A stretch of DNA of 32,000 bases, taken from assembly GCF_029232205.1 (NCBI RefSeq), contig NZ_CP107255.1, positions 270,001 through 302,000 on the forward strand, read 5' to 3'. The stretch's first letter is position 1. The number at the start of each line of letters is the position of its first letter. The position numbers were made by a program, and so were the translations under genes. This document shows positions 1 to 16,852 of the stretch, one piece after another. Source of the DNA: Candidatus Saccharimonadota bacterium (lineage in GTDB: Archaea; Nanohalarchaeota; Nanosalinia; Nanosalinales; Nanosalinaceae). The notes beneath the pieces are model-generated. The model saw nothing but the letters and a program-made list of their open reading frames with translations, was not told the DNA's origin and searched no databases.

Positions 1-2700
1 TTGATGTCTGTTATGTCTGCTTTAACTGTTACTGTGCTTCCTGGCGCTACTGGTGTTGATGGACTTGCTCTTACATTGGTTATACTTGGTGCTGTGTTGT
101 CAATCTTGAACTTCATGGTTTTTGTGTTGGTATTCCCTAGATCATCTTGGGCCTCTACTGTGATCTGGTAGTTTCCGTCTGCTTCGGTTGTTGTGTCTAG
201 GACTGCTCCGTATGAGGATCCTCCGTTTGTTCCTAGGTCGGTCCATGAAACAATAGTATCTGTTACAGTACCATCGCTATCGAGTTCCTCTATCTTGTAG
301 TCATAGGTTGTTGGATCTCCGTTTTCCAGAAGATCGTAAATTGTCTCGTTGAAGCTTGTCTGGCCCTGCACGTTTCCTGTTTTGATATTTCTGGCATCTA
401 CTGTTAGCTGGCCTGGGTTTTCTGTCAAGTCAATATTTCTGATCTGGTACAGGCCTGAGTATTTCTCGATTTCGCTTGCTGTCTCTTCAAATTCTCCTGG
501 ATCATTGATTGTTCCTGCTGAAGTGTCGCCATCCAGGTAACCTATTTGCAGGCTTCCCGGCTGTGCATCTGGGGTTGTTCCATCAAAGTTACCGTCTTTC
601 CACTGTGTCTCTGTTGTGAGGTTTTCAAGCAGGCCTCCCTGAGCTCCGTTGAGTTGTAGCGAGTCTAGTACTGGTGTGGAAGTTACCTGGTCTGTTGCGA
701 GTTTGACGGAAATTGTTGCTGTTGTACCGTCAAGGTCTGAAAGGTCTGCAGTCGTTACTCCTGATTTTCTGAGGTTTACTATAATAGTATCTCCTGTATC
801 TGTCTCTACTTTAACCCATGCCTGGTTGTAGATATTTTCTTCGTATGTTATCTCAGGAGGAGTGTTGTCAAACTGTGGTGTTACCTTTACAGTATTTCTA
901 TTTCCGGCCTTGTCCTCAGCAACCACATACACATCATGGTTTCCATCCTCAAAGTTCGTTGTATCAACATCTGCCGTCCAAGGCCCTCCACCTGTCAGCG
1001 ATCCTGACGTGTTTGTTCCATCTGCCTTTGTGATCTTGTACTCTGGGGAATTGGTATCTAGGTGGCTGTCGCTGATGCTTGCATCAATAGTGATTGTTCC
1101 TGTTACAGGGCTGCTTGGAGGCTGATTAATTGTGATACTTGGCTTTGTATCATCTGTATCTACCTGAACTGTCTGGTAGTTAATGTTGCCGAGTGTGTCA
1201 TTTGCGAATACCGCGAACTCCTGTGTCTGATTGACCTGTACATCACAGCTCCCGCTGAACTGAGAGTTGTCACAGTAGATCTCTCCTGTTGCTCCCGTCT
1301 TTGACCACACGTAGTTGTTGTTATCTTGGTCTGGGTCGTGATATCCTATCCAGTGTTGTCCACTGAACTGGCCTGTTATCAGGTCGTTTTCCTCTTGGTT
1401 CTCAATTGTTGCTAGATGATCTCCATTTGACTGGCAAGTATCTCTGGCATTTGGCCAGGTCATGTCGGAGGATGTGTTGTAGTATGTGCCATTATCTCTC
1501 TCACAGATTGCGGCCTCAGTTTCGCCTGTAGGATAATCATGCCAGACTCCTCCGCTTGATGTCAGCATCTTGACATAAGGTTGATCTCCTGCATCAGGCT
1601 GGCCGCTATCCCAGTTTTTGTAGTAGGAGGTGACTACTGTCTGGTCTAGGTGGCCTTCTCCGTCGTTGATGCTGCTTGAGATTGTTACTGTGTCGTTTGT
1701 GTTTACTACTGTGTCATTTGCTGATGTGCTTGTGACTGATGGAGGTGTTGCGTCTACTTCTACGGTTATTGTTCGGCTATCATTGAGGTTGCCGGCGTTG
1801 TCTCTGGCCCAGAATCTGTACATGTAGGATCCTGTGCTTCCTGGTGTGTTGACTGTACATTGGTTGAGGTCGGTTCCTGCATCGTTGAAAGTTGAGTTTC
1901 CACATACTGTGCTGCTATCTCTGAGCAGTTTTGTTGCGTATAGGCCACTTTCTAGATCTCTTGTTATGGCTGAGAAGTTGACTGGCTGGTTTGCTGCTGT
2001 TAGTGTTGTGTTTGCGTTTGTCTGTTCTACTATAGGGTTGTTTAGGTCGATTTTGTAGTCTCTTGTGATTTCTGCGTTGTGGCCGCTTTTTTCTGTTACT
2101 GTTACGTTGAAGGAGTTGTCTCCGCCTGCTGTTACTGTTGTTTGCCATTTATCTACTGTTGAGTTGTAGCTTAGTGGGTAGTCTGTTCCGTCTAATACTA
2201 CTTTTGCGTCTGATACTATTTCTTGTTCAGTTATTCCTGCTCCTGGATTAATTGATTCATTTGTGTTTGTTAGGGTGACGTTTACCTGGAAGTTTGCTCC
2301 GTTCTGGAAGTATCTTTCGCTTGGATATTCTACTGTTGCGATTCCTACTTTGTCTGGATCTAGGACTGTGTTTATCTGTAGTGATTTGTTTGTTAGTCCT
2401 GCATCGTCTTCTGCGAAGATTCTGTATGATCCGTCTGAGGCCAGGCTGTAAGCGTCTGAGGTGAATGTTCTCCAGTTTTCTGATGATCCTGCCTGTGTTG
2501 TAGACATTGCTTCTATACTGGTGTTTGTGGCGCCTGTCTGGTTGTATAGGGTAACCTGTGTCAGGTCTCCGTTTTCGTCTCTTACTTCTGCGCTGAACTC
2601 AACATCTGTTCCATCTGTGCTGACTATTACCTGTCTGCTTGATGTCTGGACATCTAGACTTAGTGGATCTCCCAGAGCGTTTCTAATTTCTGGGGTTACA
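1..2700 (-). other. Array of Ig-like beta-sandwich domains with recurrent A-x-D-x-A/L-G-N and D-x-T-x-P boundary signatures (contains the lectin-like insert listed next)
   Basis: Recurrent signatures: IFAEDDAGLTNKS; FWARDNAGNLNDSRTITVEVDATPPSV; VFANDTLGNINYQTVQVDTDDTKPSI; VVAEDKAGNRNTVKVTPQFDNTPPEI; VEAQDDLGNTNTKTMKFKIDNTAPSI. This is a common domain-end pattern of bacterial and archaeal surface Ig-like domains. Confidence 0.55.
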
Positions 2701-5700
2701 TTGGTCTGTCTGTAGTCAGGACATATCTCTGGTTCTTCGTAGGTGTCGTCTTCTTCGCCGTCGAAGTCACATCCCCCTGCATAATCATTTGGATAAACAG
2801 AGTGGTTTGCGTAGTATGCTTTGTTTGCCTCGTATTCTGGGTGTGAGGTGTTTCTGAAGTGATCGTAGTTTGAGGTGTTTGTTACAGGGTTGAAGTCTGG
2901 ATCTGAGGCCGCATCCACACTCGAATCTGCTGTTTCGTTCAACCAGTACTGCTCTGGTAGGTTGTCGAATCCACAGTCAGATGGTGCCACGAGCACGTTC
3001 TCTCCTTTACTTGGTTCACATTCTCCGTTTATGTCTACATCTCCATCCCCACTACCTACATCCCTGTAAACTGTAAATTCTCTTGATGTGGTGTTGAGAG
3101 GGAATGTTGCCTCGTAGTCGCCGTCCTGGCTTGTGGCCCAAATTTTGATAGTGTAATTCTTTCCGTATTCTTCATTTGAGAAGTTTATCTGGAATTGGGC
3201 CTCAGAGTCATCTCTGTATTCGTATTCTTCCTGCATCATGTCTTTGTTCTGTGAGTCTGTACAGTTGAGGCAGCTTGCGTGGTACTGGCCGTTGAAGCCG
3301 TTTGGTAGGCCTTGTGATGTGTTGAATTCTTTGAAGAATGCTGATACGTTCAGTAGGTCGTTGTCGTCGGTTCCTACTGGGTTCTGTGTTGGGCTGTCCC
3401 ATTCTGCTTCTATTCTTGCTCGGATGTCGTGTCTTTGTTTTACGATGTTTCCTCTTGGGCCTTCGTATTGTCCGTTGAGGTATCCTGGGCTCATTGACCA
3501 TTGGTCGAATGCTGCTGAGCAGTCTAGGAATCCTGTTCTGTATGAGTTTCTTGTGGAGTCGAAGTATTGTTTCTCTACTCCGATTGTTATGAAGTCGTCT
3601 CCTCCTAGGTTGTATCCGTTGCTTGATGGGTTGCCTGGTACTATCCATGTTTCAAGTTTGTTTCTTCCTCCGTGTGCTACTGCGTCGTCCCAGTTGATTA
3701 CTTCTCCTCCGTTTCTTTCTCCGCTGATTCCTCCTCCTTGGCATCCATCTTCGTCTAGGCTCCAGTAGATTCCGTCGAGTTCTGATTCTGTTAGCTGGTT
3801 GCCGTTCATGTCCTGTACTTTGGCTTTCATTGTGAAGTTGTCCATCTGGAAATCGTCTCTTCCGTCTACTGGTTCTTCTATTGTTACGTTGAGGGTTCCT
3901 CGTACTTCTATTGGGATTTCTGTAACTGGGTCTGGTTCGTAGCTGTCCTGTGGGTGGGATGCGTTGATTGTCAGGTTGTAGCTTCCTACTGGGAAGTTTC
4001 CTCTTGGATTCCATTCTGTGTGGGCCAGGTATTCGTCCCACCACTGGTTATCGTTGTCGTTCTGTGCGTTTTCGTATTCTTCTAGATCTACTTCTGCTGT
4101 TGCGATCTCTTCAGATATCTGGCTTCCGTCTGCGCTTGTTCCTGTTATCCAGAAGTGTACTGTTGAGTTTCCTACCTCATATTTTTGCTGTGATCCTTGG
4201 AATGGTGTTGTCACGTTGGCTGCGAGGTACATTGTTTCTGGGTGCTGCCATGGGCCTCCGTTACGGTATACTACGTATTTGTCAAGGTTCTGGTAGGTGT
4301 TGCCTCTTGAGTCTCTTTCCTGATTGTCTCTGTAGTATGCTGAGATGTTTAGGACGTCTGGGATTATCTGTGTCTCATTTACTTCGTTTGGTGAAACTGT
4401 TTCGAAGAAGTCGTCCATGTCGTTGTTGATTATTACTCCTGTCTCGTATGCTCCTGTGTCATATCCTGTGGTATCCCAGAGGTATGAGGCCTCTCCGCTT
4501 GAATCTGTCTGTACGTAGTGCTTGTTGCTGAGGTTTCCTATCCAGAACGTTACGTTGAATCCGGATTTATTGCTCAGTCCTGGGATGTCGATGGTTGTGT
4601 TCAGGTATTTTGTGCTGTCTGGTTCTGCGTATAGGCTTGGGGAGTAGTCTGCAATGCTTACTTTTCTTTTCGCGGTGGTATCTAGTACTCCTATGTCATC
4701 CTGGATGTACTGGTTTTGGGCTACTACGGTGATGTTTCCGTATCCGTATGCGTAGCTTGGGACAATCCATGAGCTTGATTTTGAAGAGCTTATTACTGTT
4801 AGTTCTGTGTCGTTATCCTGGTATCTCCAGGTGTAGCCGATGTCGAGGTTTCCTGCAGATCCTGTTGCTGTTGTGATGCTTGCTCGAAGCGTCTTTTCTT
4901 CGTTGTAGAATAATTCTCCTGTTGGAGGTTCTTCTATCGTTACGTTGGCCTCATCTTTCAGCACAAAGTTTTCTGAGTCATTCTCATTTAGAATTCTTGT
5001 ATCAATGTTGGTCTTGTTTTCGAGCTGGGCTGTTACTGAGTAGTCTCCTGGATTGTAGTTGCTGTCAAGTGTTACTGTGGCCGAGGCCTTTCCTTCTGAG
5101 TCTGTGTCCTTTTCTGCTACTTTGTTCCCGTTGATGTAAAATGTTACGTTGAAGTCTGTCCATGTTTCGTTGATGGTGGATTGGTAGGCCTCTTTGTTGT
5201 CTCCTGTGATTATCTGGCCTGAAAGGTTGTACTGGTAGTCTCCATCGTATGTTCTTACCTTGTCTGCTCCGCCTTCGGTCAGGTTCATCTTGATTACTCT
5301 GTCGATGACAATTGTGTTGATGTCTGAGGCCTGTGAGTAGTATGGATTTTCTACGTCAACTGTCAGGTCTGTGTCACTGGTAAAGTATTCTGGAATTGTC
5401 CATGATCCTGTTTCTCCTGAGTTAATTGTTTTTGTGGTGTCTGCGTCTTCTGCTGTCCAGATGATGTCTGATCCTGGGATGTTTCCTGCGTTTCCACAGC
5501 TGTCTGAAACATTTACGTCGAGGTTTACGTTATCTCCCTGCCTGTAACTTGTTCCACTGGTTGAACTGTTTAGTGGAGATGTAATATTGACACTGGCCTG
5601 TCCGTGAACCTCAATAGTGGAGGAGTCCTGTGTTTCATACAGATCGTACAGCTGGCTGTCAAGCGATGCGTTCACATCTACAGTGTATTCTCCAGGTGTA

Positions 5701-8700
5701 TCTTCACAGACTGTGTTCCAGTTGTAAGTTGCTTCTCCGCTGCTTCCCTCTACTGTATCTTCTGTAAGGCCTTCTATCTGGTATGTGGCATTGAAGTTGT
5801 TCTGCGAGATCTTCGATCCTGATGGATCCTGTAGCTCTGTTGTCAGATCTCCGCTGTTTGTTCTCTGGATTACTTTCCCATCTGAGATGAATTCAGGCCT
5901 TACTACATCTTTCACTAGGAAGTTGTTTGTTCCTGTTGCTGCATCATTGTAACCTGTTTTTGATACTGTTGCTGTCCATTGCTGCTGGCCTACGTTGATC
6001 AGGATGTTTGGATCGTAGTTACATGTGTATGTTCCTGTGTTTTCTGTTGTTGAGCATGTGTTTTCCGTAGGGGTTGAGTAGGAGACTGTTGCTCCGTCGA
6101 CTGTTTCTCCCAGCATGTTTGTCAGGTTTAGGCTTAGGTCTGTGGTTAGAGGGTATCCGTTGTTTCTTGTGACGGAGTTGTTTTCGTAGACACTTGCTGT
6201 TGGTAGAGAGGTTATGTTGAGTGTTCCTTTGACTTCTTTCTGGTATGTGTTGTTGAAGTCTCTGTAACCTGATTTCTCTAGTACTACTCTTACGCTGTTT
6301 GATCCTATGGAGGCCTCGTCTGGTATGTCGAAGCTTCCTGTGAATCCTTCTGAATTTGCTGTGCCTGTGTCCTTGGTATCTCCGTTCCATTTGAGTGTGT
6401 AGGATACGCTGTCTACTGCGTTCTTTCCATCTGTAATGTTAGAGATGTTGTAGTCAAGTTCTGTATCTCCGCTGGACTCATTGTATCTGTAAACTGGTGA
6501 GTCTGTGAGATTGATGTCTGCCTGAAGATTTCCGTTCACATTGAATGTGTCGTTTGATTTAATCTGGTGTACGTATCCTGATTTATTCACTGAGACATTC
6601 CAAGTGTATTCTCCGGCGTCCAGGCTGTTTGATGGGTTGAATGTACAGTTGTATACGTTAAGTGTCTGTGATTCTGTTTCGCATGTTCCTGCCGGAGTGT
6701 TGAAGTTAACGGTTGCTGAGGTGATGTTCTCTCCAAGTCTGTTTGTAACTTCTGCAACGAGTGTTATGTTATCGTCTTGCCTGTATACTGTTTCAGATTG
6801 GCTTGCTACTGATGTGTTAATGCTTCCTTTGACTTCAAGATCTTCGGTGTATGTGAAATCTGTGTAGTCTCCTTTCTGCAGTGTTATTTCCGCAGTGTGG
6901 TTGCCAAGTGTTTCGTCGTCAGGAACATCGAAGCTATCATTTGTACCATCAGAATCTACCTGGGCCTGTCTCTGCTGCTGTCCATCCCAGTCTATGGAGA
7001 ATGTTACATCGTTCAGCGAGTTGTTACCATCGTTAATGTTGTATACTGAGTATTCTACCGTGTTTTGGCCTGTATCATTGTTGTATCTTAGGAGAGGCCC
7101 GTTTACAATGTCGCTTGTTGCCTCTATAGGTGTTCTGACCTTGATGCTTCCGTTCTCATTTTCGTTGTATTCGAAGTAAGGCTTTGATACATCTATGCTC
7201 CAGTTGTAATCTCCTGCGCTAAGCGAGTCTGACGGATCAAATTCACAGGTGTATTCGTTTCCGTCTTCGTAGTTATTCTGGCAGAATCCTGAAGGTGTGT
7301 CGAATGTGACATCTGCAGTTATGTTGCTTCCTGTACTGTCTTTCAGCGTAGCTGTTAGGTTTATTGTATCATTCTGCGCATATACTACGTCACCTGATGT
7401 GAGAGCTCCATCTACTAGGCCATATACATCTACTGTTCTGGTAACTTTCTTTTCGTGGAAGTAAGGTTCGGTGAGTGTGACGTTGAGGTATCTTGGGCCT
7501 ACTTCTGCGCTTTCCTGCACGCTGTAGTCGCTGCTTACTTCGCTGGTGCTTGTTCCTGAGTTAATTCCTTCGAACTGTCCGAAGTCGACTGTGAAGTCTA
7601 CCGGTTGTTCTGTCCCGAATTGATCTTGAATGTTGCTGAAGTTGTATGTGAACGTATTCTGCGGATGATTTGTAGGCCTGTAGGCCTTATCTGGTACTGT
7701 GGTGCTTCCTACAGTTAGTTCTCCCATTAGTGTGAAATTGATGTTTTGACTGGTGTTGGCCTTGTAGTAGTCGTTTCCAGTCATTCTGATACTCCAGTTA
7801 TGGTCGCCTACAGAGTAGTTGAAACTGCTTAGTGTGTAGTTACAGTAGCCGCTGTTTGGAGTTGTGATTGCTCCGCTGTCGATCATTGATCCATCTATTC
7901 TGAACCGGCAGTAGGCCTCATTGGTATCCAGGCTTTCATTGTCTACGAGGTCTTTTACTTCTACTCCGAAGTCGGCTTCTTCCTCTGTCCTGTTGATTTT
8001 CAGATCTCTTCCCTGGCTGTAGATCAGGCCTACATTGTGTTTTTCTACTGTGAAGAATTTTTCTGAGCTGTTTGTTTCACCGTGGATTGCCTGTCCATCG
8101 TTGTAGACATCCTGGTACTCTACCTTGTATCTGATATCGCCTGTCCAGTTCTTGTAGGACTGTAGTTTGAAACTGATGTTTCCGGTTCCTGTTTTCTCTT
8201 GAGTCTTGATCCACTGGGCAGGGGTTTTGGCCCAGATTGATGCGTTGATTTGATCGTTTTCGTTATCTGAGAATGAAGTATTTATTGTGAAGTTTTCTCC
8301 CCAGTATCCCTGATCTGGTGTGTTGCTGAAGCTCTCTAGTACTGGTGCTGCGTTAGTTTTTCCTCCTACTCTGTAAATTGTTTCGTTGTGTTCTGAGTAT
8401 GTTGTTCCTACTTCTTCCTGCGTTACCTTGATGCTGTCAATTTTGCCGTTGCTGTTTTCATCTGATTTACATATCTGGAATGTTGCACCTTCCGCAGTGA
8501 TCTGCTCTTTCGAGCTGCATCCTGTGCTTGACGGAGTGATATCTGTGTATGTTCCATCCTGATCCCAGTCAACTTCGATGAATACGTTGTCTGTTATCTT
8601 GCTTTCATTGACTGCAATTGTTGTTGTGACATTTCTGAATGTTGCTGATGTTTTAGAAGTGTTTCTGAACACTGTCACGTTCTGGTATGATGGTGATCCT

Positions 8701-11700
8701 CTGCTGAAGTTTGATTTAGTCTGGACTACTGGTGTTGCGTTCATTCCTTCTTCGTACCAGATGTAGTCATCTGATCTGATTGGTGTATCTGGGTCTAGGA
8801 TGTATGCTAGGTCTCCTGGCAGAGGAAGGTATGGCGCGCTTATAGAGTACTTTCTACCGTTGAATACTACTTCCTGTGATCCTTCTGTTGAGAGAGTATC
8901 TGGAAGGTAAAGGCTTTCTACTCTTACTGGTACTGCAGGATTGCTGCTGTATGCTACCTGCAGTGCATTGAACATGATGTCTTGGCCTGTTGAAATGCCT
9001 GTTCTCTGGGCCCACTTTGTCACGTCTTCCTGCAGTGTGTACGTATCTGAGAAGTTGTATTCGTATTCTACTCTTGGTTCTGAGACTTCTACTCTTCCGC
9101 CGCTGTCGGATCCAAAGACAATGTCTATTGTACATGTCAAGTTGCTACACTGGCCGAGTTCATCGTTGAATTCGTCTGTGAAGTTGCTGCCTGTAAGGGT
9201 TGTTTCTCCGAAGAAGAGGCCTGTTTCTGAGTATTCGTTGTCTCCGTCGTTTCCTATGTTTACTGTCAGGTTTTCTGGTACTGAGAATAGGTTGATTATG
9301 TCGTTTTCTGAGGTTGTGACTCCTACTTCTTTTCCTGCTACTCTTCCGATCTCTCCTTTACTGAGTTCCTGGATTTGCGAGCTGTATTCGTATGTGTTGA
9401 TTGGTGTGCCATCAGGCTCCATAAGGAGTACTGTTCCATTCCTGAAACCTGCCAGAATGCTGCTTTCTGAGGCCTTCGTAATGTTTCCTGATTCAAGGCT
9501 TTCTACTTTGGAGCTGTAGCTTTTCTCCCAGATCTGTGTGCCGTCTGAGTCGATTGCAATTATTCTCTGGTCTTCTGTTCCTCCGATGATTTCTTTTCCT
9601 GTGCTTCCTCCGCTTACCTGTGTTGTTGTCAGTGATCTGAACCATGTGTCGCCTGTCGGAGGATATCTTTCGATCTGTGTTCCGGAAGAGTCAAGGATTG
9701 CAATCTTGTTCCTTGTTCCTACTACAATTTCGTTTCCTGTTGTCCCGCTTGATGTATCTCCGATTTCAACATCGGTTATCTCGCTGCCTGCAGTGTAATT
9801 CCAGATCTCGGATCCTGTACTGTTTAGTGCTCTTACTGTTCCACCGAACTTGGAAACAACTATTTCATCTCCTCTGTTGGATCCGAAGACGTCTGTTCTT
9901 AGCAGTAGGCCTTCGGAAAGTTTTTGACCCTGTGTGTATGTCGCCGTGCTTGAGCTTGAGTCAAGTAGCAGGTTGTAGCTGTCTGAGCAGCTTTCACAGT
10001 AATATGTAATGTTCTCGTTTTCGTTCAGGTCCTGACCGTCTACCTCTGTCCTTACCCATGTGTATTCGAGGCTGGTATTGGTCCATGTTCTTGCGGCAGA
10101 TCCTGTTCTTCTTTCGTAAGTGTAGTTCTCTGTCTTTACTTCTGAGGTCAGCCCTGAGTTCGTTGAGGTGCCGATGAAGGCGTTTGCCCCTGAGTCTGTG
10201 CTAAGTTCTACAGTGGAATCTGAGTTTAGATCTGATCCACTAACTTCTGTCTTTACCATCGAATAATTGACAGGTATCTGAGTGATTTTCCTCATGAGGC
10301 CTGTTTGATTATCTTCGATCAGATTGTAGCCTGTCGTACATGAGTCACATGTTACTGATAGCGGATTCTGGCCTAGTTCATCTGATGGTAGTTCTGTACC
10401 AGCCCAGTTGTATTCTGTAGATGTATTAGTCCAGACCTGCACCATGTAGTCTCCTGATGTTAGATTGCCTTGGTAGTATGAGTGGCCTGTCGTGCTGGAG
10501 TCCTTTATGAGGTTGAATGAACTGTCTGTAGCACAGGATTCACAGTTGTACGTAACGTTTCTTCCCTGGGCAATATCTGATTTGTTGACTTCTGTCTCTA
10601 CCCAGTCAAAGTCCAGCGATGAATCTGTGCTTACGTTGATCATGTAGTCAAATGGAAGTGGTTCGAGGGCATCGTCTGTAAGTATTTCGGAGTTACCTGA
10701 GGTGGAGTTGTCTCCAAACATTTCGTAGTAGCTACTGCTGTTACAGTTAGAACATTCGTAGAATATTACGTCGTTGTTCAGTGAAGACGTGTCAATTTGA
10801 GTGGAAACCCACTCTCCGCCAGTAGTATTTCCAGTAGTGTTACAGGAAGGTATCTTGCTAGTGTTAATCTGCTTGTTTACGTTTGTACCTGGACCTCCTA
10901 GCTGCAGGTCATAGGAAGCATTTCCTACCGAACACATTTTTGCTGAAACTGTTGCTTCCTGGGCCTGTAGACTTTCGACGTCGAGAGCGGTAAGATCAAA
11001 GTAAGGATCAGGATTTCCGCCTCCATTACATCCAATACATGTTGAGTTGTCGGCCTCTCCGTCATTGATAGATCTTACTACTGTGCTTGTCTCCTGGATC
11101 TCATCTGTGCTGATATTGTATCTATTTCCATTTATGACGAAGTATGGCTGAGATCCTTTCGATCCTTCATAGTTCAATGCTGTTCTGAGGTATACTTTCT
11201 CGGCCTCTATATCGGAAGGGATATTGTAGAATAGGTTGAATGTCGCCTGATTCTGTATGTCTGTCAGGTTTTCACCTGCTCCATCTTCTGCACTGTAGAT
11301 TTCCTTGGCTGTTTCGGTTACTTGCCCTGAGTCAATAGGGTAGGTTGTGCCATTCAACTCGAACTCTAGATCAGAAATCTCTCCACCGATACTGTTGAGT
11401 GCAACTGAGACATACGTGCTGGCATTATCCTGAATAGTAGTATTAACTGGAATCTGATTGTCAGAGACAGGCACTACAGATTCTCCATCTGAACTTGACC
11501 TGTTTACATTTTCACTAGTGGTACTGCTAACTTCTGAAAGATTTACATTGTAGGTGTTTCCATTCAGTTCTATCTGTGCAAGGCCTTCGGCTCCAGGTTC
11601 CTTTGCAAGAGGCAGTTCCAAGTAGTACTTCTCGGCTGAGAAACCTGGTTGCTCGACTTCCATAGTGAGATTTCTTCCATCGAATCGGGCCATACCATCT

Positions 11701-12941
11701 ACGTTTACGTCGTTCAGTCTTCTTTCGGCCATCTCTGTTACTTCGCTGGTGTCGACCGTGTAGTTCTGGCCTCCAACCTCTACTTTCAGCGAGCCCTGAT
11801 CGCTGTACTTGTTGACAGCGGTTTTCAGGTAGACTGTTCCATTTTCCTGTGAAATATTGAATGGATACTCTACGTTTACTGGGCCTCCGCATCCTGTACA
11901 GATCAAGTCTTCTGCTGAGCCATCGTCGTTGGTGTAGAAAATGTTCTGTGATGAGAGTTCTCCGCTGTCTACGTTGAAGTAGCTGCTTGTATCCGATGTG
12001 CTCCATATGAGATTTCCGTTTGTATCCAGAACCTTGACTCCTGCATTTGTTGTTAGAATTATTTCTTCCTTGTTTGTCACGACGTCAATGTTGCCTGATG
12101 AGATTCCGTTCACATCGTTGCTGGAAGTGTAGTTCCAGAGGCTGTTTCCTGAAGAGTCATAGGCCTTGACCTGCGTGCCATCAAGAACCACCATTTCATC
12201 TCTTGAATCTCCCTGGATGTCGGCGAACTCCATTCCTGTTCCTGTCAGTGTGAGAAGAGGCCTGCTCTCAAGGGTTGATAGTTTGATGCTGAAATTCTGT
12301 ACGCTACTGTCGCCAGGAATATCAAAGCTTCGTGTAGTATCTTGATCGAGATTCAGTACTTCTCCTTCGTATCCTGGATCGTAGTTTGTCGAATCTCCTG
12401 AAGGATTACAGGCCCAGAAGTTTGATGAGAAGGAACAAAGTGTCTGAGTTACCAGGCCTTCGTTCAAGGTTATTCTTGTTGAGTCCTGTTCGGCCTTACC
12501 TCTTCCACTGACGGTTCTGGTTACTCCTCCTATACTAATATTGGCCTTGTAGTCTCCGAACTGGTTGACGTCAAATACTATTCTTCCGAAAGAGTTACTC
12601 TGGCCATTCCAGTCTGCAGTAATATCGTTTCCTGCTACTGTGCCCGATGAATCTGTCTCAACCCAGGATCCATCCTGTCGGTATTCAATCCTGTTCAAGC
12701 TGAGGCTATCTTGCCCATCGATAACATCTATATCTAGCTGGCTATTGGTGGTTGAATTAAACTTTATAGTCCAGTTGCCGGCTTCTGAGCCGTCAGAAAT
12801 TCTAAATTGGGAAACTGCATCAGCTATATTTGCATCTGTTTGACCTGCGATGCTTCCAGCCAGTATTAGAGCAAAAGCTATACCTACTACCAGCTTGCCT
12901 AAATCGTCGCTGAGGCTGCCTCTCAGTCTAGAAGTGATCAC
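1..12941 (-). CDS. Giant secreted/cell-surface adhesin-like protein; at least 4313 codons in the window, 3' end cut by the window edge
   Basis: The minus-strand frame with codon first positions at coordinates congruent to 2 mod 3 is open from an in-frame TAA (12975-12977) down to coordinate 1. The only plausible start is GTG at 12939-12941; the first in-frame ATG is at 12233 and would delete the signal-like segment. Hand translation starts (M)ITSRLRGSLSDDLGKLVVGIAFALILAGSIAGQTDANIADAV and is still open at the edge with ...KIDNTAPSITNVRASPSTPVAPGSTVTVKADITDI. Independent check: all seven minus-strand track ORFs in 1-12950 start at coordinates congruent to 0 or 1 mod 3. None lies in this frame although it contains many ATGs, as expected if the frame has no stop in the window. 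Confidence 0.85.
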   Translation of the reverse strand, partial: MITSRLRGSLSDDLGKLVVGIAFALILAGSIAGQTDANIADAVSQFRISDGSEAGNWTIKFNSTTNSQLDIDVIDGQDSLSLNRIEYRQDGSWVETDSSGTVAGNDITADWNGQSNSFGRIVFDVNQFGDYKANISIGGVTRTVSGRGKAEQDSTRITLNEGLVTQTLCSFSSNFWACNPSGDSTNYDPGYEGEVLNLDQDTTRSFDIPGDSSVQNFSIKLSTLESRPLLTLTGTGMEFADIQGDSRDEMVVLDGTQVKAYDSSGNSLWNYTSSNDVNGISSGNIDVVTNKEEIILTTNAGVKVLDTNGNLIWSTSDTSSYFNVDSGELSSQNIFYTNDDGSAEDLICTGCGGPVNVEYPFNISQENGTVYLKTAVNKYSDQGSLKVEVGGQNYTVDTSEVTEMAERRLNDVNVDGMARFDGRNLTMEVEQPGFSAEKYYLELPLAKEPGAEGLAQIELNGNTYNVNLSEVSSTTSENVNRSSSDGESVVPVSDNQIPVNTTIQDNASTYVSVALNSIGGEISDLEFELNGTTYPIDSGQVTETAKEIYSAEDGAGENLTDIQNQATFNLFYNIPSDIEAEKVYLRTALNYEGSKGSQPYFVINGNRYNISTDEIQETSTVVRSINDGEADNSTCIGCNGGGNPDPYFDLTALDVESLQAQEATVSAKMCSVGNASYDLQLGGPGTNVNKQINTSKIPSCNTTGNTTGGEWVSTQIDTSSLNNDVIFYECSNCNSSSYYEMFGDNSTSGNSEILTDDALEPLPFDYMINVSTDSSLDFDWVETEVNKSDIAQGRNVTYNCESCATDSSFNLIKDSSTTGHSYYQGNLTSGDYMVQVWTNTSTEYNWAGTELPSDELGQNPLSVTCDSCTTGYNLIEDNQTGLMRKITQIPVNYSMVKTEVSGSDLNSDSTVELSTDSGANAFIGTSTNSGLTSEVKTENYTYERRTGSAARTWTNTSLEYTWVRTEVDGQDLNENENITYYCESCSDSYNLLLDSSSSTATYTQGQKLSEGLLLRTDVFGSNRGDEIVVSKFGGTVRALNSTGSEIWNYTAGSEITDVEIGDTSSGTTGNEIVVGTRNKIAILDSSGTQIERYPPTGDTWFRSLTTTQVSGGSTGKEIIGGTEDQRIIAIDSDGTQIWEKSYSSKVESLESGNITKASESSILAGFRNGTVLLMEPDGTPINTYEYSSQIQELSKGEIGRVAGKEVGVTTSENDIINLFSVPENLTVNIGNDGDNEYSETGLFFGETTLTGSNFTDEFNDELGQCSNLTCTIDIVFGSDSGGRVEVSEPRVEYEYNFSDTYTLQEDVTKWAQRTGISTGQDIMFNALQVAYSSNPAVPVRVESLYLPDTLSTEGSQEVVFNGRKYSISAPYLPLPGDLAYILDPDTPIRSDDYIWYEEGMNATPVVQTKSNFSRGSPSYQNVTVFRNTSKTSATFRNVTTTIAVNESKITDNVFIEVDWDQDGTYTDITPSSTGCSSKEQITAEGATFQICKSDENSNGKIDSIKVTQEEVGTTYSEHNETIYRVGGKTNAAPVLESFSNTPDQGYWGENFTINTSFSDNENDQINASIWAKTPAQWIKTQEKTGTGNISFKLQSYKNWTGDIRYKVEYQDVYNDGQAIHGETNSSEKFFTVEKHNVGLIYSQGRDLKINRTEEEADFGVEVKDLVDNESLDTNEAYCRFRIDGSMIDSGAITTPNSGYCNYTLSSFNYSVGDHNWSIRMTGNDYYKANTSQNINFTLMGELTVGSTTVPDKAYRPTNHPQNTFTYNFSNIQDQFGTEQPVDFTVDFGQFEGINSGTSTSEVSSDYSVQESAEVGPRYLNVTLTEPYFHEKKVTRTVDVYGLVDGALTSGDVVYAQNDTINLTATLKDSTGSNITADVTFDTPSGFCQNNYEDGNEYTCEFDPSDSLSAGDYNWSIDVSKPYFEYNENENGSIKVRTPIEATSDIVNGPLLRYNNDTGQNTVEYSVYNINDGNNSLNDVTFSIDWDGQQQRQAQVDSDGTNDSFDVPDDETLGNHTAEITLQKGDYTDFTYTEDLEVKGSINTSVASQSETVYRQDDNITLVAEVTNRLGENITSATVNFNTPAGTCETESQTLNVYNCTFNPSNSLDAGEYTWNVSVNKSGYVHQIKSNDTFNVNGNLQADINLTDSPVYRYNESSGDTELDYNISNITDGKNAVDSVSYTLKWNGDTKDTGTANSEGFTGSFDIPDEASIGSNSVRVVLEKSGYRDFNNTYQKEVKGTLNITSLPTASVYENNSVTRNNGYPLTTDLSLNLTNMLGETVDGATVSYSTPTENTCSTTENTGTYTCNYDPNILINVGQQQWTATVSKTGYNDAATGTNNFLVKDVVRPEFISDGKVIQRTNSGDLTTELQDPSGSKISQNNFNATYQIEGLTEDTVEGSSGEATYNWNTVCEDTPGEYTVDVNASLDSQLYDLYETQDSSTIEVHGQASVNITSPLNSSTSGTSYRQGDNVNLDVNVSDSCGNAGNIPGSDIIWTAEDADTTKTINSGETGSWTIPEYFTSDTDLTVDVENPYYSQASDINTIVIDRVIKMNLTEGGADKVRTYDGDYQYNLSGQIITGDNKEAYQSTINETWTDFNVTFYINGNKVAEKDTDSEGKASATVTLDSNYNPGDYSVTAQLENKTNIDTRILNENDSENFVLKDEANVTIEEPPTGELFYNEEKTLRASITTATGSAGNLDIGYTWRYQDNDTELTVISSSKSSSWIVPSYAYGYGNITVVAQNQYIQDDIGVLDTTAKRKVSIADYSPSLYAEPDSTKYLNTTIDIPGLSNKSGFNVTFWIGNLSNKHYVQTDSSGEASYLWDTTGYDTGAYETGVIINNDMDDFFETVSPNEVNETQIIPDVLNISAYYRDNQERDSRGNTYQNLDKYVVYRNGGPWQHPETMYLAANVTTPFQGSQQKYEVGNSTVHFWITGTSADGSQISEEIATAEVDLEEYENAQNDNDNQWWDEYLAHTEWNPRGNFPVGSYNLTINASHPQDSYEPDPVTEIPIEVRGTLNVTIEEPVDGRDDFQMDNFTMKAKVQDMNGNQLTESELDGIYWSLDEDGCQGGGISGERNGGEVINWDDAVAHGGRNKLETWIVPGNPSSNGYNLGGDDFITIGVEKQYFDSTRNSYRTGFLDCSAAFDQWSMSPGYLNGQYEGPRGNIVKQRHDIRARIEAEWDSPTQNPVGTDDNDLLNVSAFFKEFNTSQGLPNGFNGQYHASCLNCTDSQNKDMMQEEYEYRDDSEAQFQINFSNEEYGKNYTIKIWATSQDGDYEATFPLNTTSREFTVYRDVGSGDGDVDINGECEPSKGENVLVAPSDCGFDNLPEQYWLNETADSSVDAASDPDFNPVTNTSNYDHFRNTSHPEYEANKAYYANHSVYPNDYAGGCDFDGEEDDTYEEPEICPDYRQTNVTPEIRNALGDPLSLDVQTSSRQVIVSTDGTDVEFSAEVRDENGDLTQVTLYNQTGATNTSIEAMSTTQAGSSENWRTFTSDAYSLASDGSYRIFAEDDAGLTNKSLQINTVLDPDKVGIATVEYPSERYFQNGANFQVNVTLTNTNESINPGAGITEQEIVSDAKVVLDGTDYPLSYNSTVDKWQTTVTAGGDNSFNVTVTEKSGHNAEITRDYKIDLNNPIVEQTNANTTLTAANQPVNFSAITRDLESGLYATKLLRDSSTVCGNSTFNDAGTDLNQCTVNTPGSTGSYMYRFWARDNAGNLNDSRTITVEVDATPPSVTSTSANDTVVNTNDTVTISSSINDGEGHLDQTVVTSYYKNWDSGQPDAGDQPYVKMLTSSGGVWHDYPTGETEAAICERDNGTYYNTSSDMTWPNARDTCQSNGDHLATIENQEENDLITGQFSGQHWIGYHDPDQDNNNYVWSKTGATGEIYCDNSQFSGSCDVQVNQTQEFAVFANDTLGNINYQTVQVDTDDTKPSITINQPPSSPVTGTITIDASISDSHLDTNSPEYKITKADGTNTSGSLTGGGPWTADVDTTNFEDGNHDVYVVAEDKAGNRNTVKVTPQFDNTPPEITYEENIYNQAWVKVETDTGDTIIVNLRKSGVTTADLSDLDGTTATISVKLATDQVTSTPVLDSLQLNGAQGGLLENLTTETQWKDGNFDGTTPDAQPGSLQIGYLDGDTSAGTINDPGEFEETASEIEKYSGLYQIRNIDLTENPGQLTVDARNIKTGNVQGQTSFNETIYDLLENGDPTTYDYKIEELDSDGTVTDTIVSWTDLGTNGGSSYGAVLDTTTEADGNYQITVEAQDDLGNTNTKTMKFKIDNTAPSITNVRASPSTPVAPGSTVTVKADITDI
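1242..1625 (-). other. C-type lectin-like segment with a QPD...WHD motif; its two halves are in swapped order
   Basis: YYKNWDSGQPDAGDQPYVKMLTSSGGVWHDYPTGETEAAICE resembles the C-terminal CTLD half (W-x-x-G-E/Q-P-N/D ... W-N-D ... C-E). It is followed by TYYNTSSDMTWPNARDTCQSNGDHLATIENQEENDLITGQFSGQHWIGYHDPDQDNNNYVWSKTG, which resembles the N-terminal CTLD half (W-x-x-A-x-x-x-C ... L-A-x-I-x-x-x-E-E-N ... W-I-G ... W-x-W). QPD is at 1593-1601, WHD at 1536-1544 and WIGYHD at 1335-1352. Confidence 0.55.
5895..7735 (-). repeat. Three copies of an alternating two-domain (A-B) Ig-like super-repeat, about 205 aa per unit
   Basis: B-type domains share ..VY-x-Q-x-D-x-I-x-L-x-A-x-(L/V) ... T-C/F-C ... 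Y-x-C-x-F/Y-(D/N)-P-S ... (A/V)-G-(D/E)-Y-x-W: TFDTPSGFCQNNYEDGNEYTCEFDPSDSLSAGDYNWSIDVSK; NFNTPAGTCETESQTLNVYNCTFNPSNSLDAGEYTWNVSVNK; SYSTPTENTCSTTENTGTYTCNYDPNILINVGQQQWTATVSK. A-type domains share Y-R-Y-N ... Y-x-(V/I)-x-N-I-x-D-G-x-N ... F-D-(V/I)-P-D-(D/E) ... E-V-K-G. Confidence 0.6.
9285..9905 (-). other. Beta-propeller-like region 2 of the giant protein (about 4-5 blades)
   Basis: DVFGSNRGDEIVVSKFGGTVRALNSTGSEIWNY / VEIGDTSSGTTGNEIVVGTRNKIAILDSSGTQIERY / TQVSGGSTGKEIIGGTEDQRIIAIDSDGTQIWEK / GNITKASESSILAGFRNGTVLLMEPDGTPINTY / GEIGRVAGKEVGVTTSENDIINLF. The period is about 45 aa, as in FG-GAP or PQQ/BamB-type blades. Confidence 0.5.
9905..10825 (-). repeat. Five tandem modules of about 50-70 aa; four carry a CxxC motif
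   Basis: W-V-x-T-E-V-x-x-x-D leads into ..N-x-T-Y-x-C-E/D-S-C-x-x-x-Y/F-N-L-I/L. Instances: WVSTQIDTSSLNNDVIFYECSNCNSSSYYEMF; WVETEVNKSDIAQGRNVTYNCESCATDSSFNLI; WAGTELPSDELGQNPLSVTCDSCTTGYNLIED; MVKTEVSGSDLNSDSTVELSTDSG (degenerate, no Cys); WVRTEVDGQDLNENENITYYCESCSDSYNLLLD. CxxC codons lie at 10743-10754, 10533-10544, 10338-10349 and 9986-9997. Two further CxxC lie upstream: CTGC at 11889-11900 and CIGC at 11028-11039. Confidence 0.6.
11040..11846 (-). repeat. Four tandem modules of about 70 aa each (protein-level repeat) in the giant protein
   Basis: R1 TVYLKTAVNKYSDQGSLKVEVGGQNYTVDTSEVTEMAERR; R2 KYYLELPLAKEPGAEGLAQIELNGNTYNVNLSEVSSTTSE; R3 TYVSVALNSIGGEISDLEFELNGTTYPIDSGQVTETAKEI; R4 KVYLRTALNYEGSKGSQPYFVINGNRYNISTDEIQETSTV. 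Consensus is Y-L-x-x-A-L-N ... E-L-N-G-x-x-Y-x-V/I ... E-V/I-x-E-T, with a period of about 200-210 nt. Confidence 0.6.
11985..12235 (-). other. Beta-propeller blade-like repeats (FG-GAP/PQQ-like), region 1 of the giant protein
   Basis: FADIQGDSRDEMVVLDGTQVKAYDSSGNSLWNYTSSNDVNGISSGNIDVVTNKEEIILTTNAGVKVLDTNGNLIWSTS. It shows alternating D-x-x-G-D/N ... E-I-I/V-V and V-x-A/L-D-x-x-G-x-x-I/L-W patterns, typical of propeller blades. Confidence 0.45.
12842..12941 (-). other. N-terminal signal peptide or signal-anchor of the giant protein
   Basis: A charged n-region (ITSRLRGSLSDD) is followed by a hydrophobic stretch (LGKLVVGIAFALILAGSIAG) and then polar QTDANIA. This is the classic Sec signal layout. 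Cleavage versus anchoring cannot be decided by eye. Confidence 0.6.
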
Positions 12942-12964
12942 TAAGATATAGTTCCTTAAGCTAG

Positions 12965-12976
12965 TATAAAAAAATT
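12965..12976 (-). promoter_or_regulatory. Candidate TATA box for the giant gene
   Basis: The minus strand reads AATTTTTTTATA, centred about 27 nt upstream of the GTG start. That spacing fits an archaeal TATA-to-TSS distance and a leaderless or near-leaderless mRNA. Confidence 0.3.
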
Positions 12977-13019
12977 AGACTGCCGGCGAAAAACCGCCAG
13001 CGCTACTATTTTCTCCTCA

Positions 13020-13030
13020 TTAATTATAAA
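13020..13030 (+). promoter_or_regulatory. Candidate TATA box for the 1249-aa gene
   Basis: TTAATTATAAA is centred about 38 nt upstream of ATG 13064. A short AGGT lies 5 nt before the ATG. Confidence 0.3.
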
Positions 13031-13063
13031 CGACGCGAGTCAATTCAATATATAGTAGGTTTT

Positions 13064-16813: not shown

Positions 16814-16852
16814 GCCGAAACATGTTTAACAATCGTGGCCCGTTGACTTTCT

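What the first reader, a model, noticed from the sequence alone, without database searches (positions are those of the whole stretch)
1..12941. A 12.9-kb stop-free frame that the ORF track misses: a giant surface protein over 4300 aa, still open at the window edge
The minus-strand frame (codon starts congruent to 2 mod 3) has no stop between the TAA at 12975-12977 and coordinate 1. It therefore fills 40 percent of the window as a single gene. It starts with a Sec-type signal or anchor. It then strings together two propeller-like regions, at least three different families of tandem modules, more than a dozen Ig-like domains, a lectin-like segment and unassigned Cys-stapled regions. No catalytic motif is recognisable in the visible part, and the C-terminus is missing. 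Proteins of this size are rare in archaea. They are a recurring, poorly understood feature of small-genome symbiotic lineages; giant 'SPEARE' proteins were reported for Antarctic Nanohaloarchaeota, as I recall. The module families seen here match nothing I can name.
Basis: partly seen in the sequence, partly recalled or inferred. Interest (0 to 1): 0.9.

Follow-up and report, generated by a model that had tools for sequence, protein, structure and literature searches.

The report
Giant nanohaloarchaeal host-contact surface protein gene
The 12.9-kb open frame is real and encodes the outer 4,313 residues of one of the giant "SPEARE"-type surface proteins that tiny salt-loving symbiotic archaea are thought to use to hold on to their host cells; it is a divergent new member of a family that has already been described.

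Summary
The minus-strand frame has no stop from 12974 to coordinate 3 (4,324 codons). The start is GTG at 12941, and the gene runs off the left edge. The window comes from a Nanohaloarchaeon.

The product has 4,313 visible residues (471 kDa, pI 4.06). It has one N-terminal signal-type hydrophobic segment, 144 N-glycosylation sequons and 44 cysteines.

It aligns collinearly with giant nanohaloarchaeal proteins. The closest is MFB6242445.1 (43% identity in one alignment over residues 59-4313). Two complete 7,852- and 7,878-residue relatives end in a transmembrane helix, a HerA/VirB4-like ATPase and a coiled coil. That is the published SPEARE / "giant membrane-anchored protein" architecture.

AlphaFold2 and Foldseek support propeller segments and chains of Ig-like domains. 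Pfam supports a compact C-type lectin-like domain. Several module families remain unassigned.

The C-terminus, probably about 4,900 further residues, is unseen.

A roughly 1,250-residue membrane protein gene sits divergently upstream of the giant gene here and in five related loci. The pair is absent from the matching site in three related genomes.

Verdict: a real gene and a new member of a known kind. Interest is moderate.

The parts
3..12941 (-). Giant gene: the first 4,313 codons, incomplete at the 3' end because it runs off the window's left edge.
   Evidence: There is no stop in 4,324 codons. The GTG start at 12941 matches the gene call on L001. The protein is collinear with P0166, P0010, P0012 and P0013.
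12837..12941 (-). Residues 1-35: signal peptide or N-terminal anchor (MITSRLRGSLSDDLGKLVVGIAFALILAGSIAGQ).
   Evidence: This is the only Kyte-Doolittle window above 1.6 in the 4,313 residues. Relatives P0012 and P0013 begin with a comparable hydrophobic segment. SignalP was not available.
12492..12836 (-). Residues 36-150: N-terminal all-beta (Ig-like) domain.
   Evidence: The AF2 model has strands at model positions 12-111 with pLDDT about 65-75. This matches the 'single Ig-like domain' that follows the signal peptide in SVXNc_0300.
11952..12254 (-). Residues 230-330: first beta-propeller-like segment, about 2.5 blades.
   Evidence: It repeats with residues 1017-1144. The AF2 strands have pLDDT 70-88. 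Remote hits to this segment are FG-GAP/PQQ-type propeller proteins.
11022..11924 (-). Residues 340-640: four or five tandem modules of about 72 residues, some preceded by a C-I-G-C motif. Family-specific and unassigned.
   Evidence: Internal repeats at 25-38% identity. The modules are conserved in all relatives. No Pfam hit.
9897..11021 (-). Residues 641-1015: about five tandem CxxC modules of about 66-70 residues (W-V-x-T-x-V ... N-I-T-Y-x-C-x-x-C ... T-N-x-S-L). Unassigned.
   Evidence: Internal repeats. The two Cys of the CxxC motif are invariant or at least 90% conserved in 20 copies from five proteins. A profile of the module found no Pfam or PDB family.
9282..9896 (-). Residues 1016-1220: second beta-propeller segment, about 5.5 blades.
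   Evidence: The AF2 strands have pLDDT 75-89. The best Foldseek matches are propellers: BBS1, designed Cake proteins and PQQ_DH 3hxj. More than 100 remote hits to this stretch include FG-GAP/PQQ_2 proteins.
5832..7814 (-). Residues 1710-2370: three or more tandem units of about 200 residues, each with one Cys pair (probably two beta-sandwich domains per unit).
   Evidence: Internal repeats at 31-37% identity, E down to 1e-23. The Cys pairs are spaced about 200 residues apart. This region was not modelled.
2682..4544 (-). Residues 2800-3420: the most conserved core of the family. It ends in a Cys-rich stretch (3295-3413) of unknown fold.
   Evidence: Identity is 49-73% to P0166 and P0013 here, against 23-53% over residues 1-2800. 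It is 68% identical to P0167. The AF2 pLDDT is below 50 for residues 3295-3413.
1620..2627 (-). Residues 3439-3774: three or four Ig-like beta-sandwich domains.
   Evidence: AF2 pLDDT is 65-86. Foldseek matches chains of MG/Ig/FN3-like domains.
1242..1505 (-). Residues 3813-3900: compact C-type lectin-like domain.
   Evidence: Pfam Lectin_C scores 30.5 bits against a cut-off of 22.6, E 6e-7, covering profile positions 2-63 of 107. There are 36 matches to PDB sequences at E up to 1; all five with E below 0.01 are C-type lectin-like domains. AF2 gives a beta-beta-alpha-alpha-beta pattern. The closest relative has the domain at the same place.
3..1229 (-). Residues 3905-4313: Big_13-like Ig domains that continue past the window edge.
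   Evidence: Weak Pfam Big_13 match. Internal repeats at 3704-4312. Remote Big_13 protein hits. AF2 pLDDT is 75-86 for residues 3888-4020.
12942..13063 (.). A 122-bp divergent intergenic region between the giant gene and its partner gene. It presumably holds both promoters; A/T-rich TATA-like boxes are visible.
   Evidence: Read directly from the sequence. No archaeal promoter scan was available.
13064..16813 (+). Conserved partner gene: a 1,249-residue Cys-rich, sequon-rich membrane protein with an N-terminal signal, a duplicated weakly GH127-like region, a C-terminal transmembrane helix and a cytoplasmic tail of about 100 residues.
   Evidence: Pfam GH127 catalytic domain scores 35.7 bits against a cut-off of 24.9, but no single stretch is significant on its own. 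It has 4.0 sequons per 100 residues and 30 Cys. Homologues sit divergently upstream of the giant gene in L008, L009, L010, L013 and L014.

Best explanation
Window 3-12941 (minus strand) encodes the N-terminal 4,313 residues of a nanohaloarchaeal giant membrane-anchored surface protein of the SPEARE type.

Shown here:
- It is one uninterrupted gene with an N-terminal signal-type segment.
- The product is very acidic, rich in sequons and all-beta.
- It is built from an Ig-like domain, two FG-GAP/PQQ-type propeller segments, two families of family-specific tandem modules, long chains of Ig-like sandwiches, a conserved Cys-rich core and a compact C-type lectin-like domain.
- It is collinear with giant proteins of other Nanohaloarchaeota.

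Inferred from the full-length relatives P0012 and P0013 and the near-full-length P0166:
- About 4,900 further residues lie beyond the window. They would include more Ig-like and LamG domains, one transmembrane helix, and a cytoplasmic HerA/VirB4-like P-loop ATPase with a coiled coil.
- A second ATPase gene follows.
- The topology is type I, with the N-terminus outside and the C-terminus inside the cell. The part visible in this window is therefore the outer, host-facing half of a very long glycosylated stalk.

Inferred mechanism, taken from the literature and not tested here: the stalk reaches and binds the surface of the haloarchaeal host through its propeller, lectin-like and Ig-like domains and holds the two cells together. 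The membrane-proximal ATPases may power transfer of material across the contact. The conserved, divergently transcribed membrane partner probably works with the giant protein at the cell surface.
For: - The frame is open, and its start is confirmed by an independent contig.
- The setting is nanohaloarchaeal: Nre, aIF5B, enolase, PAC2 and a fused primase. Nre is 92% identical to that of strain M3_22.
- A full-sensitivity search with residues 1-1200 found 18 representatives at E<1e-30. Among them are proteins of 4,758, 7,852 and 7,878 residues aligned end to end over the query.
- Whole-protein collinearity: P0166 at 43% over residues 59-4313 in one alignment; P0010 at 33-34% over 31-3772; P0013 at 31-43% over 34-3776; P0012 at 29% over 39-3420.
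- P0013 ends with a transmembrane helix and a tail that hits DUF87/HerA, HerA_C, ResIII, AAA_10 and TrwB. This is the same architecture and the same Pfam hits that define the published family.
- Related loci share the same gene cluster: partner gene, giant gene, a 624/625-residue DUF87 ATPase and two small genes.
- Extracellular character: pI 4.06, 144 sequons against 79 +/- 8 in shuffled sequences, 44 cysteines, and no second hydrophobic segment.
- Folds: propellers, chains of beta-sandwiches and a C-type lectin-like domain.
Against: - The C-terminus is not in the window. The defining transmembrane helix, ATPase and downstream ATPase gene are unseen.
- No database held the rest of this gene.
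- One relative (L014) has the gene split into ORFs of 2,834 and at least 1,571 residues, so interruption further downstream cannot be excluded.
- No LamG domain or protease domain was found in the visible part.
- I could not fetch the named proteins (NAR1_1133, SVXNc_0300, BNXNv_0298). The link to them rests on matching architecture and Pfam signatures, not on a direct alignment.
- Adhesion, glycosylation and any transport role are inferences. The AF2 models are of medium to low confidence (pLDDT 67.6 and 58.9).
Confidence: 0.8

Rival explanations
1. It is a giant surface adhesin related to the SPEARE head but without the membrane anchor and ATPase tail. This would be a secreted or otherwise attached variant, or a gene that is broken further downstream, acting only as glue or surface coat.
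For: The C-terminus is unseen. After residue 3776 the architecture differs among relatives. In L014 the homologous gene is split into two ORFs. One 3,315-residue SG9 protein is reported with a reversed layout.
Against: Collinearity with P0166 continues to the very last visible residue. P0166 itself runs on collinearly with the parts of P0012 and P0013 that lead to the transmembrane helix and ATPase. The conserved partner gene is in place.
Confidence: 0.13
2. The long frame is an artefact: an assembly chimera of repeated adhesin genes, or several genes or pseudogenes fused by sequencing errors.
For: The protein is repetitive at the amino-acid level. Only the first 671 bp of the gene are confirmed by an independent contig.
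Against: The chance of 4,324 stop-free codons is about 1e-100 (my arithmetic). There are no near-identical DNA repeats to mislead an assembler. A single unbroken alignment with P0166 spans 4,338 columns. Relatives are called as single genes of about 7,850 residues in independent assemblies.
Confidence: 0.02
3. The lectin-like domain marks the protein as the variable target of a diversity-generating retroelement, as is known for some DPANN archaea.
For: DGR targets often carry a C-type lectin fold (established knowledge). A C-type lectin-like domain is present.
Against: There is no reverse transcriptase among the window's genes. There is no template/variable repeat pair: no direct repeat of 30 nt or more exceeds 81% identity. 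The domain is internal to the protein, not at its C-terminus.
Confidence: 0.01

Closest known systems
Giant membrane-anchored surface proteins SVXNc_0300 (9,409 aa, Ca. Nanohalococcus occultus) and BNXNv_0298 (8,880 aa, Ca. Nanohalovita haloferacivicina), PMC10266531
   Same: Both come from Nanohaloarchaeota. Both have a Sec signal, then an Ig-like domain, then beta-propeller domains, then a bulk of tandem Ig-like domains. The pI is about 4.0-4.1. Both are strain-specific insertions in otherwise collinear genomes. The window protein's full-length relatives have the transmembrane helix, the VirB4/HerA-like ATPase, the coiled coil and a second ATPase gene downstream, as described for these two proteins.
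   Different: I could not align the window protein directly with them because their sequences were not retrievable. The window protein's C-terminus is missing. The window protein has a C-type lectin-like domain and two module families that the paper does not mention. The paper's section on the giant proteins that I read discusses only downstream genes and does not mention the upstream partner gene.
[quoted passage not shown]
   Same: A very long, mostly extracytoplasmic adhesion-domain protein of a host-dependent nanohaloarchaeon. The cytoplasmic tail of the window protein's relatives gives the same 'type III restriction enzyme (ResIII)' Pfam hit on which the SPEARE name was based.
   Different: No serine-protease, toxin-like or LamG domain was detected in the visible 4,313 residues. 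The protease and nuclease assignments have themselves been disputed.
MFB6242445.1 (P0166), 'LamG-like jellyroll fold domain-containing protein, partial', Ca. Nanosalina MAG; the closest sequence relative
   Same: 43% identity in one alignment over residues 59-4313. The C-type lectin-like domain is at the same position. The partner gene sits upstream in the same divergent arrangement.
   Different: At only 43% identity it is a different species' version. Its LamG domain lies about 525 residues beyond the point that aligns with the window edge. Its locus is in a different genomic neighbourhood.
Bacterial giant adhesins and capture filaments, such as the Aureispira grappling-hook protein GhpA and large repetitive adhesins (PDB 9fly, 9flw, 6xi3)
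   Same: Long chains of beta-sandwich domains that project a binding tip far from the cell. These are among the Foldseek matches.
   Different: This is a structural analogy only: TM-scores are 0.15-0.17 on the query, there is no sequence homology, the organisms are in a different domain of life, and these proteins have no C-terminal ATPase.

Membership tests
SPEARE / nanohaloarchaeal giant membrane-anchored surface proteins | A single very long ORF (thousands of residues) in a Nanohaloarchaeota genome. | tested here: met
   At least 4,313 codons with no stop. The flanking genes are nanohaloarchaeal.
SPEARE / nanohaloarchaeal giant membrane-anchored surface proteins | Collinear sequence homology to full-length members that carry the family's C-terminal module. 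| tested here: met
   P0013: 31% over residues 34-2123 and 43% over 2071-3776. P0012: 29% over 39-3420. Both end in a transmembrane helix and a DUF87/HerA/ResIII ATPase.
SPEARE / nanohaloarchaeal giant membrane-anchored surface proteins | An N-terminal Sec signal followed by an Ig-like domain and beta-propeller domain(s). | tested here: met
   A single N-terminal hydrophobic segment (heuristic, no SignalP). The AF2 model and Foldseek propeller matches. Remote FG-GAP/PQQ hits.
SPEARE / nanohaloarchaeal giant membrane-anchored surface proteins | The bulk of the ectodomain is made of tandem Ig-like adhesion domains. | tested here: met
   Beta-sandwich chains in model 2 and the Foldseek matches. 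Big_13-like repeats. Residues 1240-2850 were not modelled.
SPEARE / nanohaloarchaeal giant membrane-anchored surface proteins | At least one laminin-G (ConA-like) domain in the ectodomain (Hamm 2019). | tested here: inconclusive
   No LamG hit in the visible part. In the closest relative the LamG domain lies about 525 residues beyond the position aligned with the window edge.
SPEARE / nanohaloarchaeal giant membrane-anchored surface proteins | A transmembrane helix near the C-terminus, followed by a cytoplasmic HerA/VirB4-like (originally 'type III restriction') ATPase. | not testable with these tools
   The 3' end lies outside the window. No collection held the rest of the contig.
SPEARE / nanohaloarchaeal giant membrane-anchored surface proteins | A second VirB4/DUF87-type ATPase gene immediately downstream. 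| not testable with these tools
   Outside the window. Present in L008 and L009.
SPEARE / nanohaloarchaeal giant membrane-anchored surface proteins | A serine protease domain (original SPEARE definition, disputed in PMC10266531). | tested here: not met
   No protease family at E<=0.1 in Pfam or E<=1 in NCBIfam.
C-type lectin-like domain (PF00059) | A Pfam score above the gathering cut-off, and the core alpha1/alpha2/WIG motif. | tested here: met
   30.5 bits against 22.6. 'HWIGYHD' aligns with the WIGL motif of CLEC4F and other C-type lectin-like domains. Helices fall at residues 3829-3838 and 3849-3859 in the model.
C-type lectin-like domain (PF00059) | The long-loop region with the Ca2+/sugar-binding motifs (EPN/QPD ... 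WND). | tested here: not met
   Only profile positions 2-63 of 107 are matched. About 30 residues follow the W-S-x-x-G motif and contain no such motifs (read from the sequence). Sugar binding is therefore unproven.
Diversity-generating retroelement target protein | A nearby reverse transcriptase and a template/variable repeat pair. | tested here: not met
   No reverse transcriptase among the window's genes. No suitable repeat.

The most novel reading that the evidence does not exclude
The giant protein may not be merely a long adhesin. It may be one part of a conserved DPANN host-contact apparatus made of several parts: the giant protein, the divergently transcribed 1,250-residue (alpha/alpha)6-like membrane protein, two HerA/VirB4-like ATPases and two small proteins. 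In this reading, the first roughly 3,700 residues (propeller, CxxC modules and Cys-rich core) form a conserved working 'head' at the outer tip. The head acts on the host envelope together with the partner protein. Segments of the head are exchanged between lineages by recombination.
Probability: 0.3. Interest if true: 0.6.

Novelty: new member of a known kind. Interest (0 to 1): 0.35.

Why it matters
How DPANN archaea recognise, hold and exploit their hosts is still unknown. These giant genes take up several percent of a 1-Mb genome and are the main candidates for that role.

This window adds a divergent member, at most 43% identical to anything in the collections searched. It also provides three leads that can be tested.

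1. The outer roughly 3,700 residues are the collinear, conserved part of the family, and the same layout appears in non-halophilic DPANN. This argues for a function beyond variable stickiness.
2. A large membrane protein gene is always paired divergently with the giant gene. It is absent from the giant-protein section of PMC10266531 that I read, which discusses only downstream genes.
3. The locus is an insertion relative to close relatives and shows a mosaic identity pattern. Both fit rapid, host-driven turnover.

Tried and rejected
- A word-index search with the whole 4,313-residue protein timed out.
- Searches with the last 800 residues, with the core (2850-3450) and with the lectin region returned only remote Big_13 proteins, one 684-residue fragment, and nothing, respectively. 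That index seems not to reach the giant relatives. The full HMMER search was what found them.
- Scans of genome and metagenome contigs with the last 500 residues found nothing. I could not extend the gene to the left.
- Pfam and NCBIfam scans of the whole protein gave only Lectin_C and weak Big_13.
- A profile of the CxxC module against PDB and Pfam gave only chance-level hits.
- A profile of the partner protein against PDB gave nothing.
- DGR idea rejected: no reverse transcriptase and no template repeat.
- Repeat-driven misassembly rejected.
- I considered whether the two propeller segments fold into one 8-bladed propeller with a 690-residue insertion.
Full report
**Observation**

The reverse complement of window 3-12974 translates into 4,324 codons without a stop. 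This is by far the longest open stretch in the window; the next is 1,282 codons. The frame is closed upstream by TAA at 12975-12977. The first start codon is GTG at 12941, which gives 4,313 visible residues that run off the left edge.

The ORF tool omits the frame only because it skips ORFs that leave the source. On this strand about 5% of random codons would be stops, so chance is excluded (about 1e-100; my arithmetic from the composition).

A 5,013-bp Logan contig (L001, SRR26436575) is 100% identical to window 12271-17283. Its gene call for the giant gene starts at the base that corresponds to window 12941.

No direct DNA repeat of 30 nt or more exceeds 81% identity, and there are no inverted repeats. 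The internal repeats are old and diverged, and they would not mislead an assembler.

**Organism and setting**

The rest of the window holds archaeal housekeeping genes. These are DUF7544, Nre, aIF5B, ribosomal proteins S2 and L44e, enolase, PAC2, aIF2-alpha, GINS, a fused PriS-PriL primase and PCNA. There are no tRNA genes.

The Nre protein is 92% identical to that of Ca. Nanohaloarchaea archaeon M3_22. It is 90% identical to another Nanohaloarchaea MAG (L003) and 67-72% identical to further Nanohaloarchaea, including Ca. Nanosalina sp. VS9-1.

DNA synteny with M3_22 (L002) and with L003 runs from about 17.7 kb to 28.3 kb of the window. In L002, L003 and L004 the gene next to DUF7544 is an XPD/Rad3 helicase, followed in L002 by SufBD genes. 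In this window that position holds the 1,249-residue gene and the giant gene. Neither has a tblastn match in those loci. The pair is therefore a strain-specific insertion of at least 16.8 kb. PMC10266531 reports the same for giant genes in cultivated nanohaloarchaea.

**The protein**

The visible part weighs 471 kDa and has a pI of 4.06. Threonine, serine, asparagine and aspartate together make up 38% of the residues. It carries 144 N-x-S/T sequons, against 79 +/- 8 in shuffled sequences. It has 44 cysteines, seven pairs of them in CxxC motifs.

There is only one hydrophobic segment, at residues 14-35. The cytoplasmic proteins of the window have 0-0.7 sequons per 100 residues, against 3.3 here.

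**Domain order**

Sources: self-comparison, Pfam and PDB sequence searches, and two AlphaFold2 models built on alignments with seven relatives each.

| Residues | Feature |
|---|---|
| 1-35 | Signal or anchor |
| 36-150 | Beta-sandwich (Ig-like) domain |
| ~150-226 | Low-confidence linker with one Cys pair |
| 230-330 | Propeller blades |
| 340-640 | Four or five modules of about 72 residues |
| 641-1015 | About five CxxC modules of 66-70 residues |
| 1016-1220 | Propeller blades |
| 1220-2850 | Beta-rich region, not modelled; includes three or more units of about 200 residues at 1710-2370 |
| 2800-3420 | Conserved core, ending in a Cys-rich stretch (3295-3413) that AF2 could not fold |
| 3439-3774 | Ig-like sandwiches |
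| 3813-3900 | Compact C-type lectin-like domain |
| 3905-4313 | Big_13-like Ig domains, continuing past the edge |

- Model 1 has a mean pLDDT of 67.6. Its best Foldseek matches in the PDB are beta-propellers: BBS1, designed Cake proteins and the PQQ_DH-like protein 3hxj.
- Remote sequence hits to both propeller segments are FG-GAP, PQQ_2 and carrageenase-type propeller proteins.
- Model 2 has a mean pLDDT of 58.9. It matches multi-sandwich chains such as CD109, alpha-2-macroglobulin, mastigoneme, GhpA and large adhesin repeats. TM-scores are low, so this supports only the description 'a string of Ig/MG/FN3-like domains'.
- The lectin hit passes Pfam's cut-off (30.5 bits against 22.6) but covers only the first 60% of the model. 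The Ca2+/sugar loop is missing, so carbohydrate binding is not established.
- A profile of 20 CxxC modules found no Pfam or PDB family.

**Relatives**

A full HMMER search of 1.84 billion representative proteins with residues 1-1200 gave 248 hits at E<=1e-3 and 18 at E<=1e-30. The best hits aligned over the whole query:

- P0010: 4,758 aa, a partial protein, NMJ77427.1, from a Nanohaloarchaea archaeon.
- P0012: 7,852 aa, on LFCJ01000050.1.
- P0013: 7,878 aa, from a JGI metagenome.

P0015 (5,928 aa) and P0016 (5,508 aa) are two longer-headed proteins whose composition is not that of a halophile. P0016 comes from a MAG labelled Nanoarchaeota.

A member of another cluster is the closest relative. 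P0166 (MFB6242445.1) comes from a Ca. Nanosalina MAG and is 7,852 aa long, partial at both ends. It is 43% identical to the window protein in one alignment of 4,338 columns, covering residues 59-4313 against its own 1-4254.

P0166 continues for another 3,598 residues. These align with P0012 and P0013 up to about 1,300 residues before their ends.

P0012 and P0013 end with a transmembrane helix, then a P-loop ATPase, then a coiled coil. The ATPase hits DUF87/HerA, HerA_C, ResIII, AAA_10 and TrwB_AAD_bind.

By extrapolation, the window's protein would be about 9,200 residues long. This is an inference, not an observation.

**Link to the literature**

Hamm et al. 2019 (PMC6642349) named very long nanohaloarchaeal proteins 'SPEARE'. 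They are mostly extracytoplasmic and have adhesion and LamG domains, a transmembrane helix near the C-terminus and a cytoplasmic 'type III restriction enzyme' domain.

PMC10266531 (2023) described SVXNc_0300 (9,409 aa) and BNXNv_0298 (8,880 aa). Their layout is a Sec signal, one Ig-like domain, beta-propellers with PQQ-like motifs, about 75 Ig-like domains, a transmembrane helix, a VirB4/TraG-like ATPase and a coiled coil, with a second VirB4-like ATPase gene downstream. The authors re-read the 'restriction' domain as that ATPase and doubted the protease assignment.

The window protein and its relatives reproduce this architecture point by point, including the ResIII and HerA hits. I could not retrieve the named sequences, so no direct alignment was made.

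**Gene cluster**

In L008 and L009 the giant gene is followed by a 624/625-residue DUF87/HerA ATPase gene that overlaps its end. Two further conserved genes follow, of about 460-530 and about 108 residues.

A 1,240-1,388-residue gene lies divergently upstream of the giant gene in L008, L009, L010 and L014. A gene of at least 1,613 residues lies there in the non-halophile locus L013. All are homologous to the window's 1,249-residue gene, at 26-33% identity over 830-1,400 aligned columns. L012 has no such gene upstream.

The partner protein has a signal peptide, a duplicated Cys-rich region, a C-terminal transmembrane helix and a cytoplasmic tail of about 100 residues. The duplicated region has weak GH127 and C5-epimerase similarity: 35.7 bits for the whole protein against a cut-off of 24.9, with no single significant stretch.

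The cluster sits in a different genomic neighbourhood in each genome.

**Mechanism**

Shown: the visible part is an exported, acidic, sequon-rich chain of beta-domains with no detectable enzyme domain.

Inferred from full-length relatives: the protein is type I, with the N-terminus outside and the C-terminal ATPase inside the cell. The window therefore encodes the outer half of the molecule. The outermost roughly 3,700 residues are the collinear, conserved part of the family, and the architecture diverges only after about residue 3776.

Inferred from the literature: the protein mediates host recognition and attachment, and possibly energised exchange across the contact.

My estimates are about 0.8 that this is a SPEARE-type host-contact protein and about 0.13 that it is an anchor-less or interrupted variant. 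Artefact and DGR-target explanations are each 0.02 or less.

**Conservation pattern**

Residues 2800-3400 are the best-conserved stretch in all comparisons. Within 2800-3200 the window protein is closer to P0013 (62-73%) than to P0166 (49-56%). Across residues 1-2800 and 3400-4200, P0166 is the closer of the two by 2-31 points in every 200-residue block. This incongruence suggests exchange of a segment between lineages. I did not test this phylogenetically.

**Verdict**

The gene is a divergent new member of a published family, not a new kind of object. Its C-terminus and its function remain unverified.

Noticed in passing
window 13064-16813 (+); also L008:2484-6242, L009:6106-9828, L010:2552-6475, L014:2434-6600, L013:2-4840: A gene for a 1,240-1,613-residue Cys-rich, sequon-rich membrane protein lies divergently upstream of the giant gene in six of seven loci, including one non-halophilic DPANN locus. 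The protein has a signal peptide, a duplicated region with weak GH127/(alpha/alpha)6 similarity, a C-terminal transmembrane helix and a cytoplasmic tail. It looks like a fixed partner of the giant gene, and it is not mentioned in the section of PMC10266531 that I read.
   Followed up: partly
window 1-16850 compared with L002:11192-17817, L003:11179-15518, L004:11551-14333: In three related genomes the gene next to DUF7544 is an XPD/Rad3 helicase (followed by SufBD in L002). Here that position holds the partner gene and the giant gene. The cluster is therefore a strain-specific insertion of at least 16.8 kb. No tRNA gene or integrase is visible at its right-hand border.
   Followed up: partly
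window 2682-4544 (residues 2800-3420): Mosaic identity. This core is 62-73% identical to P0013 at residues 2800-3200 but only 49-56% to P0166, although P0166 is the closer relative across residues 1-2800 and 3400-4200. This may reflect recombination between giant genes of different lineages.
   Followed up: partly
L014:6764-20011: In one Nanohaloarchaea MAG the homologous giant gene is called as two consecutive ORFs (2,834 and at least 1,571 residues) separated by 32 bp. The second ORF aligns with residues 2341-3770 of the window protein. This could be a frameshift, a pseudogene or a sequencing error.
   Followed up: no
L003:12108-15518: The XPD/Rad3 helicase of this close relative carries an intein with a LAGLIDADG homing-endonuclease domain. 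The M3_22 and VS9-1 versions (614 and 678 residues) lack it.
   Followed up: no
L013:5109-22895 (P0015, last ~260 residues): The C-terminal tail of this gene call switches abruptly from an Asn/Ile/Thr-rich composition to an Arg/Ala/His/Gly-rich one. This suggests read-through into another frame or a chimeric contig end.
   Followed up: no
window 29321-30724 (-): A single 468-residue protein carries both primase small-subunit (PriS) and large-subunit (PriL) domains. This is a fused primase.
   Followed up: no
L008:31911-33610, L009:35456-37377, L014:33-2437: Two further genes of unknown function, of about 460-690 and about 108 residues, travel with the giant-gene cluster. They lie downstream of the ATPase in L008 and L009, and upstream of the partner gene in L014. 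Neither has a homologue in the visible window.
   Followed up: partly
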